In this document: positions 1,896 through 52,262 of the stretch, in pieces
How the letters are laid out: every line of letters starts with the position of its first letter
How positions within the stretch are numbered: the first letter of the stretch is position 1
From: Octopus sinensis
Taxonomy: Eukaryota
Length of the DNA stretch: 64,000 nt
Direction: 5' to 3'
Assembly (NCBI RefSeq): GCF_006345805.1
Contig: NC_043000.1
Location: 248,001 to 312,000 of the forward strand
Notes under the pieces: generated by a model
What the model saw: the letters and a program-made list of their open reading frames with translations, nothing else
The model's database searches: none
What the model was told of the DNA's origin: nothing
Position numbers and translations under genes: made by a program

Positions 1896-1932
1896 CAGTT
1901 GAAAAGGTCTCAAATGACCGAAACCGGTACTG
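1896..1932 (+). ncRNA. Minimal type I hammerhead ribozyme, U3-A8 variant
   Basis: CAG TTGAAAA GGTC-tcaaat-GACC GAAA CCGG TA CTG. Helix I is CAG/CTG, helix II GGTC/GACC, helix III the palindrome ACCGGT, and the triplet is GUA. Confidence 0.7.
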
Positions 1933-2009
1933 AAATGTTCTTTATAAAATTATTTTAGCATTTTCTATTTTGACTTGTTTTTTCATATATATATATATAT
2001 ATATATGTA

Positions 2010-2419
2010 GGCGCAGGAGTGGCTGTGTGGTAAGTAGCTTGCTTACCAACCACATGGTTCCGGGTTCAGTCCCACTGCGTGGCACCTTGGGCAAGTGTCT
2101 TCTACTATAGGTTCGGTTCGACCAAAGCCTTGTGAGTGGATTTGGGAGACGGAAACTGAAAGAAGCCCGTCGTATATATGTATATGTATATGTATGTGTG
2201 TGTTTGTGTCTGTGCTTGTCCCCCCCTAACATCGCTTGACAACCGATGCTGGTGTGTTTACATCCCCTTAACTTAGTGGCTCGGCAAAAGAGAACGATAG
2301 AATAAGTACTAGGCTTACAAACACTAAGTCCTGGGGTCGATTTCCTCGACTAAATGCAGTGTTCCAGCATGGCCGCAGTCAAATGACTGAAACAAGTAAA
2401 AGAGTAAAAGAGTAAAAAG
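2010..2419 (+). mobile_element. tRNA-derived SINE family A
   Basis: Box A/B-like head (TGGCTGTGTGG...GGTTCAGTCCC), internal microsatellite and (AGTAAAAG)n tail. About 20 copies or fragments occur in the window. Confidence 0.9.
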
Positions 2420-2429
2420 TATATATATA

Positions 2430-3302
2430 CTAGCTTAAGGTGACCCGCTCTACGCGCGGGTGAGGTTGTGGTTGTTACTTTCTGTTGCTTCCTTTCTGTT
2501 TCTTATCGCCACATTCTCCCACTTTGTTTCTCTCGCCTTTCTCTCTCACTTTCCCACTCTCTTACTCTTCATTTCTCTCGGACTTTCCCTAGCTTTCTCT
2601 TACTCTCTATCTTTCTCTATCTATCTCTCAAAAGATCTTGAGTAAGTTGAGAAAGAAAATATTTTTACGCTTCTTAAACCCTTCGTCGTTATTCTCATTC
2701 ACTCATTATTACTTTCTCCCTTCCTTTCACTTTCTCTCTATAACGTCGTTTGATAGCGTCTACTATCTTTCCTCCGCCGCCTTTGCCAGCGCTGTCCCCC
2801 CTCTCTCTCTACGTCTGTCTGCATTCATAGAGAGAATTATCATCGCCACTACCACCACCATACAATCATGAGAATATTTCTTTCTATATATAGATAGAGA
2901 GAGAGGGGGAGAGGGAAAGTAATAATGAGTGAATGAGAATAACGTCGAAGGGTTTAAAAAGCGTAAAAATATTGAAGGCGGTGGAGGAAAGATAGTAGAC
3001 GCTATGAAACGACGTTCTAGAGAGAAATTGAAAGGAAGGGAGGAAAGAGAGAGAGAGAGAGAGAGATGGAGGAAGACAGGCAGATAAAAGAATGAGAGGA
3101 GACTTGTCAAAGTGTGCATTTTTCGCCCTAGCAACGACACCTTTTAAGATAGGGATTTCTAACTTAGCCCACTCTCATCCTCACCTCATTTTACATGTCT
3201 CTGTAAATTTTGGAGTTAATCCGACGGGATCTAGTGGCCTTTAACCCGTTCCAATGCCAAAACCAGACAAACTTTTTGCATTTCAGAATTATAATATAGA
3301 GA
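2430..3302 (-). mobile_element. Non-autonomous Helitron
   Basis: On the minus strand it starts TCTCTATATT and ends with a hairpin (CCCGC..GCGGG) followed by CTAG at 2430-2433. Confidence 0.7.
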
Positions 3303-3420
3303 CTAGCTTAAGGTGACCCGCTCTATGTGCGTGTGATGTTTTGCTTGTTGGACCAATTTATTAATGTAGCATTGTTTTATTGTTTTAAAACGAAAGAGGC
3401 AATGCGTTTATTAAAAAAAA
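3303..3420 (-). mobile_element. 3' end of a second Helitron copy, head-to-tail with 2430-3302 (far end unresolved)
   Basis: Repeats CTAGCTTAAGGTGACCCGCTCTA of 2430-2452. Confidence 0.6.
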
Positions 3421-49521: not shown

Positions 49522-50264
49522 TACGAAAGTTGTTTAAATTAAAAAGAAGGGAGCCTTAATAGTGAAATATTGGGCACCACTCTTTAATGATCAATAAGTG
49601 TAGAAGAGCTACGCTTGGGCTCGGACTGAACCCAGTATGCTCTCTCTTTACTGTGGTCATCGCCGACCCGATGTCTACAGGTATAAACATGAGCTAGCGA
49701 GGAGGCCAGTTTGCATTCTCTCGATTTGAGAGAAAAAGCACTCTACTCTTCTTTTATATCATTCTTTTCTATCATTTTAAAAAGATAAGTTAGATAATTT
49801 AGATAATATACATCGAGGTACTCTATATCCGAAGAAGAAAGAAAAAATATGCAAAAATAGAGGGGATTGTCAGAAATGTTATACCTTTGATCAGAAGTCA
49901 GCTTGACCAGGCCTGACCTGGGGCTAAACAGAAAGATCTACACATGTAGACTGAACAGTGGAAAGATTACATGCCCAGTCATACTACAGTCTTCATGTGG
50001 AGGGGCATGGCTTAGTGGTCAGTGTGTTGGACTCGTGATCGTATGATTGTGGTTTCGATTCCTGAACCGAGCGACGCGTTGTGTTTTGAAGCAAAACGCT
50101 TCATTTCACGTTGCTCCAGTCCACCCAGGAGACCAAAACGAGTAATCCTATGACAAATCAGCGTTCCGTCCAGCGGGGAATGTATGCACCACGAAGACTG
50201 GAAACTAGCTTTATGAGTTTATATGACTCGGGAAGGATCTTATCCTTTATTATACACTGGATGG

Positions 50265-50640
50265 AAGCACTCCGTCGGTTCCGACGACGAGGGTTCCGGT
50301 TGATCCGATCAACGGAACAGCCTGCTCGTGAAATTAACGTGTAAGTGGCTGAGCACTCCACAGACACGTGTACCCTTAACGTAGTTCTCGGGGATATTCA
50401 GCGTGACACAGAGAGTGACAAGGCCGGCCCTTTGAAATACAGGTACAACAGAAACAGGAAGTAAGAGAAAGTTGTGGTGAAAGAGTACAGCAGGGATCGC
50501 CATCATCCCCTGCCGGAGCCGCGTAGAGCTTTAGGTGTTTTCGCTCAATAAACACTCACAACGCCCGGTCTGGGGATCGAAACCGCGATCCTACGACCGC
50601 GAGTCCGCTGCCCTAACCACTGGGCCATTGCGCCTCCACA
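50265..50640 (-). mobile_element. SINE family B, full length
   Basis: Reverse of 59631-60013. Confidence 0.9.
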
Positions 50641-51059
50641 TCATACACTACAAACTTCACGAATAATCACTATATGTTAGTGTATGCAGTGTAGTCCTAA
50701 GTTAGGAAGTATTGAATATCTGAAACGTCAGATTAGTGGCCGGCATTATGCCGACTATATGTTTTACCGATCTCGATCAAAAGCTAATCTGGGACTACAC
50801 CACCCAACACATCATAAAAATTATAATATTCAGTGATTATCCTCAGTACCTCCTTTTCAGAAAAAAATTTCTTCAACAAGTGGGTGCATATTAAAATACA
50901 TTTAAAGGTTAAAATTATAAACAACTTATAAACAAAGGCAAAAGAAATCTCGAGTATAATCGACCGAAATTACAAAGATAATCTGGAACTCAACTGAGGA
51001 AAGAAAACTCGGAATGACCCGTCCTTGTTATCTTTTTATCGTCTATCGGGATGTTTGGT

Positions 51060-51724
51060 TTACTTGCTTCATTCACTTGATTGCGGCCATGCTGGTGCAC
51101 CGCCTTTAGTCGAACAAATCAATATTCTTTGTGAGCCGATTACTTATTCTATCGGTTTCTTTTACCGAACTCCTAAGTTACGGGGACATAAACACACCAG
51201 AACTGGTTGTCAAGCGATGGTGAAGGGACAAATATAGAGACACACACACAGATATATATATATATATATATCTATATATATATATATATATATATATATA
51301 TATATACACATACATATATATACTGCAAATAAAAAAAAACAAGAACAAACACAACAAGAAAAAAAAACAAAAACGCGAGAACGTGGTACATGCAAAGTAT
51401 TGACTGACGCTCATGGAAGGAATGAAAGGTAGTTTTACGTTTCCAGCAAAGCTCTTCATCAGAAACAGGAGACGGAGGAAAGTCCAAGAGGAAAGGAAGA
51501 CGGACGAAAAGAATCGCCAACGATCCACATACAGTTATATTTTGAAATATACATATATACGACGAGCTTATTCCATTTTCCGTCTACCAAATCCACTGAC
51601 AAGGCTTTGGTCGGCCAGAGGCTATAGTAGAAGACACTTGCCGAAGGTGTCACGCAGTGAGACTGAACCCGGAACCATGTGGTTGGGAAGCAAGATTCTT
51701 ACCACACAGCCACGCCTGTGCCTA
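51060..51724 (-). mobile_element. SINE-A hosting an HHR-bearing insert (~51322-51545)
   Basis: SINE halves at 51060-51250 and 51560-51724. Confidence 0.8.
51432..51466 (-). ncRNA. Minimal type I hammerhead motif, slightly degenerate
   Basis: GTTT CTGATGA A GAGC-ttt-GCTG GAAA CG TA AAAC, with palindrome ACGT and a G.G mismatch at the base of helix II. Confidence 0.55.
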
Positions 51725-51820
51725 TATATGCAGATATATATTCATACACATACATATTTCCGTGAATGTATATATATATATATACATACATACATATATA
51801 TATATATATATATATTTATA

Positions 51821-52262
51821 TACAAAAATATAAGAGATTGTCCACTATGTGGTCGACTCTTGCGCTAAAAATAGTTCCGCTATGGTCTCAACCACCAAGA
51901 GAACGTAAACGAGCAGGACAAATGAGGGCATTCGAATCATAACAGCGAATATAATTGACTGAACCACACGTGTGTTTGACGTTATGTTAAAATCTGGCGT
52001 GTGGTTCAGTAAATTGTATTCAAGACAAATTCTACTGAAGAGCTACAGATATATTATGTAAGTAAAATTGCATAATCCATTAATAGCGAAACAATTGTCT
52101 AGAATTTATCTACATTTTTGTTATTTTTCATTTGTCCTGCTCGTTTACGTTCATAGTTGTGCTAATTCTCCTTGGAAACAATTCTTGGTGGTTGAGACCA
52201 TAGCGGATCTATTTTTAGCGCAAGAGTCGAACACATAGTGGACACTCTCTTATATTTGTGTA
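51821..52262 (+). mobile_element. Non-coding foldback element carrying a hammerhead ribozyme
   Basis: Arms 51821-51900/52183-52262 and 51901-51925/52128-52152 (25 bp perfect), inner hairpin 51948-52020, set in (TA)n. Confidence 0.8.
52027..52107 (+). ncRNA. Type I hammerhead ribozyme, canonical core
   Basis: AAATTCTA CTGAAGA GCTA-[38 nt]-TAGC GAAA C AATT G TC TAGAATTT. Helix I is 8 bp; the GUC triplet predicts cleavage after 52099. Confidence 0.85.

What the first reader, a model, noticed from the sequence alone, without database searches (positions are those of the whole stretch)
1896..52107. Hammerhead ribozymes with three alternative Watson-Crick versions of the catalytic 3:8 pair in one window
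Seen: three unrelated motifs share one architecture (open helix I, N3-U-G-A-N-N8-A core, helix II, GAAA, palindromic helix III, UH). Their cores are TTGAAAA (U3-A8, 1899), GTGAGCA (G3-C8, 18429) and CTGAAGA (C3-G8, 52035). Established: C3-G8 is a tertiary Watson-Crick pair in the active HHR, compensatory swaps rescue cleavage, and PLE HHRs with palindromic helix III are proposed to act as dimers. Inference: this genome has diversified HHR-retroelement families that CUGANGA-based searches would miss, with covariation indicating selection for function.
Basis: partly seen in the sequence, partly recalled or inferred. Interest (0 to 1): 0.85.

Follow-up and report, generated by a model that had tools for sequence, protein, structure and literature searches.

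The report
Swapped-core hammerheads in Penelope retrotransposons
The three motifs are small hammerhead-shaped RNA elements from three different jumping-gene families; one family, present in thousands of copies beside an intact gene, has two paired core letters swapped (G3-C8), a natural form not found in the papers searched, which would likely still cut RNA slowly, though cutting is untested.

Summary
Observation confirmed. A descriptor with positions 3 and 8 free finds exactly these three motifs (shuffles: 0.1). Each pair is the fixed state of its own family, not a stray mutation: U3-A8 in 99 of 100 listed copies (1,813 hits), G3-C8 in 91 of 100 (4,894 hits), C3-G8 in 35 of 36.

The U3-A8 and G3-C8 motifs sit in terminal repeats of two distant Penelope-like elements (RT plus GIY-YIG). 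The C3-G8 motif is in a ~505-nt tandem, retrozyme-like unit. A fourth family (U3-A8, ~3,700 hits) is homologous to the G3-C8 family (z 4.4-7.9), so G-C versus U-A is a true compensatory change between relatives; within families there is no covariation.

PLE hammerheads, the dimer model and natural U3-A8 are published. Natural G3-C8 was not found in print, but three key papers were not held, and this scan noted G3-C8 before in phages and protist PLEs.

New here: most G3-C8 copies appear to come from capped RNA whose hammerhead had not been cut. Cleavage is not shown. Verdict: new variant of a known kind.

The parts
1..235 (-). Inverted, 5'-side partial copy of the family-1 terminal repeat; hammerhead core U3..A9 at 21 to 15; the GAAA half lies before the window start and is damaged
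   Evidence: blastn of the full element from L165 against the window, and sequence of L124
267..1992 (+). 5'-truncated, frameshifted family-1 Penelope-like element: RT remnant about 233-626, GIY-YIG remnant about 615-1168, 3' terminal repeat 1745-1992, followed by (TA)n
   Evidence: 86% identical to the full copy in L165 over 1,759 columns; tblastn hits; RVT_1 and GIY-YIG Pfam hits in L165
1896..1932 (+). Hammerhead motif 1 (U3-A8): helix I 1896-1898/1930-1932, core 1899-1905, helix II 1906-1909/1916-1919, GAAA 1920-1923, palindrome 1923-1928, A17 at 1929, predicted cut 1929/1930
   Evidence: family state
18424..18614 (+). Short copy of the family-2 terminal repeat, which is also the 5' end of that element's coding RNA; start codon at 18522; followed by (TA)n
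   Evidence: the same sequence runs into the ORF start in L198 and lies about 1 kb behind the ORF end in L188
18424..18470 (+). Hammerhead motif 2 (G3-C8): helix I 18424-18428/18466-18470, core 18429-18435, extra G 18436, helix II 18437-18441/18451-18455, GAAA 18456-18459, palindrome 18459-18464, U17 at 18465, predicted cut 18465/18466
   Evidence: family state
51820..51925 (-). Inverted partial copy of the family-3 unit on the 5' side of the insertion
51921..52360 (+). Family-3 copy: most of a ~505-nt unit that occurs elsewhere in head-to-tail tandem (retrozyme-like; no linked RT found)
   Evidence: 92% to the L071 unit; direct copies 505 nt apart in L071, wrap-around flanks in L076, L080, L085
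52027..52107 (+). Hammerhead motif 3 (canonical C3-G8): helix I 52027-52034/52100-52107, core 52035-52041, helix II base 52042-52045/52084-52087, GAAA 52088-52091, palindrome 52091-52098, C17 at 52099
   Evidence: family state

Best explanation
The three motifs are minimal hammerhead-shaped elements of three separate repeat families (two Penelope-like retrotransposons and one tandem unit), each fixed for its own Watson-Crick 3:8 pair, and they likely cut RNA only slowly and conditionally, as dimers. Shown: family membership, the fixed 3:8 states, linkage of motifs 1 and 2 to RT plus GIY-YIG genes, and position upstream of the ORF start (57 nt between the predicted cut and the ATG in family 2). 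Inferred: the family-2 RNA starts about 23 nt before G3 and is capped. A single motif cannot close helix III, so two RNA copies would pair through the palindrome to build two active sites. Catalysis needs a Watson-Crick pair between positions 3 and 8, whichever letters make it, so lineages could move to U-A or G-C while mismatches were purged in the source elements. Cutting is inefficient or late, possibly protein-assisted, so the reverse transcriptase mostly copies uncut RNA; starting inside the 5' end of that RNA gives the thousands of ~150-215-nt solo copies. Untested: any cleavage.
For: Chance excluded: 3 of 3 hits against 0.1. Fixed states: 99 of 100 listed, 1,813 hits, control 0; 91 of 100 listed, 4,894 hits, control 0; 35 of 36; anchored downstream of the core 35/38, 68/80, 29/32. 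PLE linkage: L165 has two direct hammerheads flanking RT and GIY-YIG ORF pieces; L188 has a 1,042-codon stop-free frame with the G3-C8 motif about 0.9 kb behind it, and 6 of 8 endonuclease loci carry the motif; the repeat runs into the ORF start in L198. Covariation: family 4 (U3-A8 in 83 of 94 listed family-4 rows) is homologous to family 2 downstream of the cut (z 4.4-7.9, 0 of 500 shuffles in 6 of 6 comparisons); pair counts at 3:8 are GC 6, UA 3, UG 1, with a second double change in helix II. Family-3 helix II shows a compensatory change in 10 versus 10 copies. Common family-2 variants fall in loop 2 and flanks, none in the core or helix II; the one in helix I keeps a wobble pair (75 copies). 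Literature: the C3G/G8C double mutant partly restores cleavage in a PLE hammerhead, which needs the PLE protein (PMC11167929, passages).
Against: No cleavage data. Of 88 family-2 copies anchored downstream, only 2 begin at the cut site and 76 extend 5' past it (the sample is biased to loci chosen for the motif). The family-2 helix III self-duplex is very weak, -0.2 kcal/mol, against -8.3 and -6.4 for the others. Motif 1 is predicted to pair U3 with A17, which resembles the inhibitory C3-G17 trap (PMC3884650, passages). The family 2/family 4 homology was weak by local alignment (22.9 versus 19.2 +/- 3.4) and by nhmmer (best E about 0.3), and clear only by global alignment. It represents one or two substitution events, not many. 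The four older G3-C8 relatives were found with a pattern requiring purine-3/pyrimidine-8, and only 2 of 4 are clearly homologous. No autonomous partner was found for family 3.
Confidence: 0.72

Rival explanations
1. The fold is kept, but for something other than cutting, for example as a binding or positioning site for the PLE protein or as a translation-control structure in the 5' leader; the G3-C8 form may not cleave at a useful rate.
For: Most family-2 copies read through the cut site and appear to start at a capped end. Weak helix III. In the PAc element, hammerhead mutants did not affect insertion in vitro and no RNA-seq reads ended at the cut site (PMC11167929, passages). Cervera and de la Pena report low activity and do not rule out other functions (PMC4209133, parts 1-2).
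Against: The 3:8 pair is described as a feature of the active-state core (PMC3884650, passages), so keeping it Watson-Crick across a double change points to selection on the catalytic conformation.
Confidence: 0.17
2. G3-C8 is a vestige or by-product: G3 is held by an overlapping signal such as a splice acceptor (it is the G of a pyrimidine-rich ...CAG), and the match with C8 arose once and spread with a successful master element.
For: G3 closes a U-rich stretch ending in CAG, and a branch-point-like motif, pyrimidine tract and AG lie 23-45 nt upstream (sequence). In D. virilis Penelope an intron ends at the 5' end of helix I (PMC4209133). Copies of one family descend from few masters, so fixation alone is not evidence of selection.
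Against: Does not explain C8, the retained GAAA, G10.1-C11.1 and palindrome, or the paired U3-A8 state in the sister family. Relatives only about 55% identical downstream still keep G3-C8 (L193, L194). No shared upstream exon is seen in the short copies, only a single shared G.
Confidence: 0.09
3. The motifs are chance matches to a loose descriptor.
For: A looser descriptor gives 2.5 hits per 480 kb in shuffles against 7 observed; folding z-scores are modest; no Rfam hammerhead hit was listed.
Against: Each motif is a family feature at the place where PLE hammerheads are known to lie, with compensatory changes.
Confidence: 0.02

Closest known systems
Minimal type I hammerheads in the terminal repeats of Penelope-like elements (Cervera and de la Pena 2014, PMC4209133; read parts 1-2 of 4 and supplement 2 parts 1-2 of 3)
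   Same: Open helix I, palindromic helix III, G10.1-C11.1, extra nucleotide between A9 and 10.1 (motif 2), location in PLE repeats, solo and opposite-strand copies 100-700 bp apart, and a U3-A8 variant (about 1,300 hits in S. mansoni).
   Different: No G3-C8 core among the representatives of their Fig. S3 that I read (C3-G8, two U3-A8, one U3-G8). Their consensus has H at the extra position; families 2 and 4 have G. No cephalopod is in that list.
PAc (Poseidon element of Anolis carolinensis) hammerhead (Frangieh et al. 2024, PMC11167929; passages)
   Same: Hammerhead at the ORF start, two internal RT start sites, uncut RNA as the main substrate; their engineered C3G/G8C double mutant has the same core pair as family 2.
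   Different: There G3-C8 is a laboratory rescue mutant with partial activity; here it is the natural state of a high-copy family with an intact frame. Families 1 and 2 carry a Cys-rich linker before the GIY-YIG, which Penelope/Poseidon lack (PMC8557442, passages).
Natural hammerhead core variants (Perreault et al. 2011, PMC3088659; section 8)
   Same: Natural 3:8 covariation to U3-A8.
   Different: That section names only U3-A8; its figures were not visible to me.
Non-LTR retrozymes (Cervera and de la Pena 2020, PMC7229834, passages; Li et al., bioRxiv 10.64898/2026.07.22.740005, part 1 of 5)
   Same: Family 3 is a type I hammerhead in a tandem, AT-rich unit with no linked RT found; the preprint argues such units derive from PLE repeats.
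   Different: The ~505-nt unit is longer than the ~170-400 nt reported, most copies are single or inverted, loop 2 is long, and no circular RNA was shown.

Membership tests
Hammerhead ribozyme (type I, minimal) | Core U4 G5 A6, A9, G12 A13 A14, A15.1-U16.1, H17 | tested here: met
   All three motifs; family majority
Hammerhead ribozyme (type I, minimal) | Literal consensus C3 and G8 | tested here: not met
   Met only by motif 3; motif 1 is U3-A8 (a published natural variant), motif 2 is G3-C8
Hammerhead ribozyme (type I, minimal) | Watson-Crick pair possible between positions 3 and 8 | tested here: met
   3 of 3 motifs; 99/100, 91/100 and 35/36 listed family copies; GC 6, UA 3, UG 1 across relatives
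Hammerhead ribozyme (type I, minimal) | Helices I and II around the core, with G10.1-C11.1 | tested here: met
   Predicted folds; compensatory changes in helix II
Hammerhead ribozyme (type I, minimal) | Palindromic helix III able to form a dimer | tested here: inconclusive
   Palindromes are present in all three; self-duplex -8.3, -0.2 and -6.4 kcal/mol; cofolding pairs the palindromes for motifs 1 and 3 but not for motif 2
Hammerhead ribozyme (type I, minimal) | Site-specific self-cleavage after H17 | not testable with these tools
   No raw RNA reads were available; genomic 5' ends show no pile-up at the site
Hammerhead ribozyme (type I, minimal) | Match to an Rfam hammerhead model | tested here: inconclusive
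   None among 150 listed of 283 matches; 133 not shown
EN+ Penelope-like element (families 1 and 2) | [quoted passage not shown] | tested here: met
   Family 1: RVT_1 E 6e-9 and GIY-YIG E 6e-5 in consecutive ORF pieces of L165. Family 2: GIY-YIG E 3.6e-5 in L167; stop-free frame with a YVDD motif in L188; that protein gave no Pfam hit as a whole, its 57% relative P0001 a weak RVT_1 hit
EN+ Penelope-like element (families 1 and 2) | Terminal repeats in partial tandem, often with an inverted 5' copy, carrying the hammerhead | tested here: met
   L165; L198, L196, L197; window 1-235
EN+ Penelope-like element (families 1 and 2) | Clade placement by RT phylogeny (Neptune, Nematis, Penelope/Poseidon) | not tested
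   No named references at hand; both have a CXnCXXC linker, which points to Neptune or Nematis (PMC8557442); the finer split is recalled, not tested
Non-LTR retrozyme (family 3) | Tandem units each with a type I hammerhead | tested here: met
   L071 has two direct copies 505 nt apart; wrap-around flanks in L076, L080, L085; most other copies are single
Non-LTR retrozyme (family 3) | No protein-coding capacity | tested here: inconclusive
   No linked RT or endonuclease in 30 loci; the nearby PLE-like ORFs in L070 and L078/L122 are separated by other repeats
Non-LTR retrozyme (family 3) | Expressed as small circular RNA | not testable with these tools
   No search was run for this family

The most novel reading that the evidence does not exclude
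An animal Penelope-like lineage has used a catalytically competent G3-C8 hammerhead for a long time. Animal genomes would then hold thousands of self-cleaving motifs that every C3-G8 or U3-A8 descriptor misses. The genomic copies would also be a fossil record showing that PLE reverse transcriptase mostly copies capped RNA whose hammerhead has not fired, so the ribozyme would act as a late or conditional switch on the 5' leader, not as the step that makes the template.
Probability: 0.4. Interest if true: 0.68.

Novelty: new variant of a known kind. Interest (0 to 1): 0.48.

Why it matters
What PLE hammerheads do is still open. This genome offers a natural comparison: sister elements with G3-C8 and U3-A8 cores, an intact ORF for the G3-C8 element, and thousands of dated insertion ends. 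It makes two things directly testable: whether only the 3:8 pairing and not the letters is under selection in nature, and whether integration uses cut or uncut RNA. In practice, about 10,000 pattern hits here would be missed by CUGANGA searches, so ribozyme surveys of animal genomes should leave 3:8 free. It is not a new ribozyme class, and two of the three variants are already published.

Tried and rejected
Rfam scan: only microsatellite-driven miRNA matches among the 150 listed. A loose genome-wide G3-C8 pattern was no different from its reversed control (51,804 versus 45,842) and was not used. A purine-3/pyrimidine-8 pattern with a 2-nt helix III insert gave 3,054 hits against 3,947 control, so there is no large A3-U8 or second G3-C8 family of that shape; it did yield four older G3-C8 relatives. 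One family-2 pattern had the wrong spacer and caught only 17 length variants (16 G3-C8, 1 G3-G8). Expression: no RNA holder listed; the four runs laid were contigs, so ends and strand could not be read. In those runs, labelled as four organisms, no variant at >=3% was listed in the core, but 13 rows were hidden, so this is weak. Looking for a pile-up of copy ends at the cut site found none: 2 of 88 in family 2, 0 of 16, 27 and 33 in families 4, 1 and 3. The ORFs near family-3 copies in L070 and L078/L122 were rejected as partners. Candidate family-4 full-length loci L189 and L190 had no PLE ORF. Of four loci fetched upstream of long family-2 ORFs, one (L198) showed the direct repeat-ORF junction, two showed inverted repeats only, and one showed none. 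Lunse et al. 2017, Przybilski and Hammann 2007 and Martick and Scott 2006 were not held. Supplement file 1 of PMC4209133 could not be searched, its part 3 of file 2 was not read, figures are not visible, and bioRxiv supplements are closed; any of these could show a natural G3-C8.
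Full report
OBSERVATION. A descriptor with positions 3 and 8 free finds exactly 3 hits in the 64-kb window, all Watson-Crick at 3:8, against 0.10-0.15 total and 0.03 Watson-Crick hits in 60 dinucleotide shuffles. Predicted folds show helices I and II with an open helix III. Rfam listed no hammerhead among the 150 shown of 283 matches. The window lies at C4:248001-312000 of a 2.72-Gb genome, probably an octopus (inferred: the best named relative of the family-2 protein is an Octopus vulgaris protein, 57% identical).

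FAMILY 1 (motif 1, U3-A8). A pattern with N3, N7 and N8 free has 1,813 matches and 0 in the reversed control; 99 of the 100 listed are U3-A8 and 1 is C3-A8. Anchored downstream of the core, 35 of 38 copies are U3-A8 and 3 had no readable core. L165 holds a full copy: two direct hammerheads 4.3 kb apart around frameshifted ORF pieces with RVT_1 (E 6e-9) and GIY-YIG (E 6e-5). Window 267-1992 is a 5'-truncated copy with an inverted repeat at 1-235. Caveat: the fold pairs U3 with A17, like the C3-G17 trap discussed in PMC3884650 (passages).

FAMILY 2 (motif 2, G3-C8). The pattern has 4,894 matches and 0 in the control. By my count of the 100 listed, 91 are G3-C8 and 9 are sporadic (G-G 3, G-A 2, G-U 2, U-C 1, C-C 1); none is C3-G8 or U3-A8. 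Anchored downstream, 68 of 80 are G3-C8. The motif lies about 1 kb behind a GIY-YIG frame in 6 of 8 endonuclease loci, and behind a 1,042-codon stop-free frame in L188. In L198 the sequence downstream of the motif runs straight into the ORF start; the matching ATG in the window is at 18522, 57 nt after the predicted cut. So the motif is in the terminal repeat and in the 5' leader. The family-1 and family-2 proteins share only short stretches at 21-33% identity. In 75 copies, variants above 15% fall in loop 2 (5 of 6 positions) and in flanks, none in the core or helix II; one in helix I keeps a wobble pair. The helix III self-duplex is weak (-0.2 kcal/mol).

FAMILY 3 (motif 3, C3-G8). 35 of 36 pattern hits are C3-G8 and 1 is U3-G8; that strict pattern is a lower bound. 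The unit is ~505 nt and occurs head-to-tail in L071, with wrap-around flanks in three more loci. Helix II shows a compensatory A-U/G-C change in 10 versus 10 of 30 readable copies. No partner ORF was found. It looks like a non-autonomous, retrozyme-like unit.

COVARIATION. There is none within families. Between families there is. Family 4, not seen in the window, has about 3,700 hits (3,765 for a pattern that also catches a few family-2 variants); 83 of its 94 listed rows are U3-A8, 5 C3-A8, 4 U3-G8 and 2 A3-A8, with G3 excluded by the pattern. Its sequence downstream of the cut aligns globally with family 2 at 48-56% identity, z 4.4-7.9, 0 of 500 shuffles in 6 of 6 comparisons, whereas families 1 and 3 give z -1.3 and 0.6. 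Local alignment and nhmmer were only marginal. Four older G3-C8 relatives turned up; L193 and L194 are homologous to family 2 (z 6.4 and 7.0), L192 weakly (2.8), L191 not shown (1.1). On a 10-row alignment of these hand-picked rows the 3:8 columns read GC 6, UA 3, UG 1, and one helix II pair also changes on both sides. This is one or two events, not many independent ones. In 480 kb of evenly spaced genome samples a looser descriptor gave 7 hits, 5 Watson-Crick, against 2.5 and 0.6 in 12 shuffles. Three families in one window is above that average but needs no special cause (inference).

WHAT THE COPIES SAY ABOUT THE TEMPLATE. Of 80 family-2 copies, 70 end within 31 nt upstream of G3 (31 of them at 20-24 nt), 10 run on for 99 nt or more, and none ends between. 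Of 17 short copies that reach the AG at -23, 12 have a G before it, while all 10 long copies have C or T (my count; my notebook's '12 of 14' left out three rows). Only that one G is shared. This fits a capped start with the cap copied as an extra G (established for reverse transcriptases; recalled). Microhomology with the reversed 3' end, or a very short first exon, are alternatives. 3' ends pile up at about +120 (30 copies) and +190 (27 copies, with 8 more at +180), like the two internal RT starts of PAc (PMC11167929, passages). Only 2 of 88 copies start at the cut site (biased sample). So most integrated copies came from RNA that was uncut, or religated.

MECHANISM. Most likely these are dimer-dependent, slow hammerheads in the leader of PLE RNA. 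The 3:8 pair is needed for the active core, but its letters are free: a C3G/G8C double mutant partly restores cleavage in a PLE hammerhead where each single mutant abolishes it, and that ribozyme needed the PLE protein (PMC11167929; also PMC8495972, passage). Cleavage by the motifs here is untested. Rivals are a non-catalytic role of the fold and a vestigial G3 held by a splice signal.

WHAT IS KNOWN. PLE minimal hammerheads, the dimer model, the extra nucleotide after A9 and about 1,300 U3-A8 motifs in S. mansoni are in PMC4209133 (parts 1-2 of 4). Its Fig. S3 rows that I read contain no G3-C8. PMC3088659 (section 8) reports natural U3-A8. Searches for a natural G3-C8 (listings, with passages read where cited) found only engineered examples. 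Searches on octopus and PLE clades (listings) and passages of PMC8557442, PMC7229834, PMC6765202 and PMC6155905 showed none. Three key papers were not held, so absence from print is not certain. This scan noted G3-C8 before on other DNA: in phages and in protist PLEs, several with an extra core nucleotide (unchecked notes); nothing for this genome or this sequence.

VERDICT. Motifs 1 and 3 are new members of known kinds. Motif 2 is a new variant: a high-copy animal PLE family fixed for G3-C8, with an intact frame and a U3-A8 sister family.

Noticed in passing
L093, L105, L106, L109, L114, L124, L189, L190 (family 4): A ~3,700-hit U3-A8 hammerhead family homologous to the G3-C8 family; L093 is a diverged form with U3-G8. 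No partner ORF was found in the two candidate full-length loci.
   Followed up: partly
family-2 copies, 23 nt upstream of G3 (e.g. L038, L047, L052, L059, L095): Sharp 5' boundary with one extra non-genomic G in 12 of 17 copies, next to a branch-point-like motif, pyrimidine tract and AG; read as a capped start site, splicing not excluded.
   Followed up: partly
L191-L194: Older G3-C8 motifs with N7 = C, changed helix II and a shorter helix III; two are clearly related to family 2.
   Followed up: partly
L040:1284(-), L143:1959(+), L127:7177(-), L077:2442(+), L152:3863(+), L097:1732(-), L045:2655(-), L120:1006(-): Further hammerhead-like motifs from other families: one more U3-A8 type (L040) and several C3-G8 types, two of them recurring.
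   Followed up: no
window 51337-51529 (-) and 28083-28142 (-): Degenerate copies (76-81%) of another hammerhead-bearing repeat (L045 type); no intact motif by the descriptor.
   Followed up: no
window 33368-33446 (+) and 43682-43725 (-): Short 3' fragments of family 1 and family 2 without the hammerhead core.
   Followed up: no
window 46790-47312 and 60531-61639: Tandem arrays of 184-bp and 228/449-bp units of an abundant short repeat.
   Followed up: no
window 7485-7525 and 57453-57488: Short telomere-like hexamer arrays; the window is 248 kb from the start of its contig.
   Followed up: no
window 29261-29908 (+) and 46302-46751 (-): Retroelement-like ORF fragments by eye; no Pfam hit at E 0.01.
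   Followed up: no
L188:5256-5708 (-): A 151-codon frame with a CCHC zinc-knuckle-like motif upstream of the family-2 ORF; probably another element.
   Followed up: no
L122:1421-2347 (+) and L123:7196-8710 (+): Fragments of two more PLE-like ORFs by eye, unlinked to family 3.
   Followed up: partly
G000:C1:85540672-85547611: Tandem array with a ~600-740-bp period that matches the loose purine-3 pattern but has no helix II.
   Followed up: no
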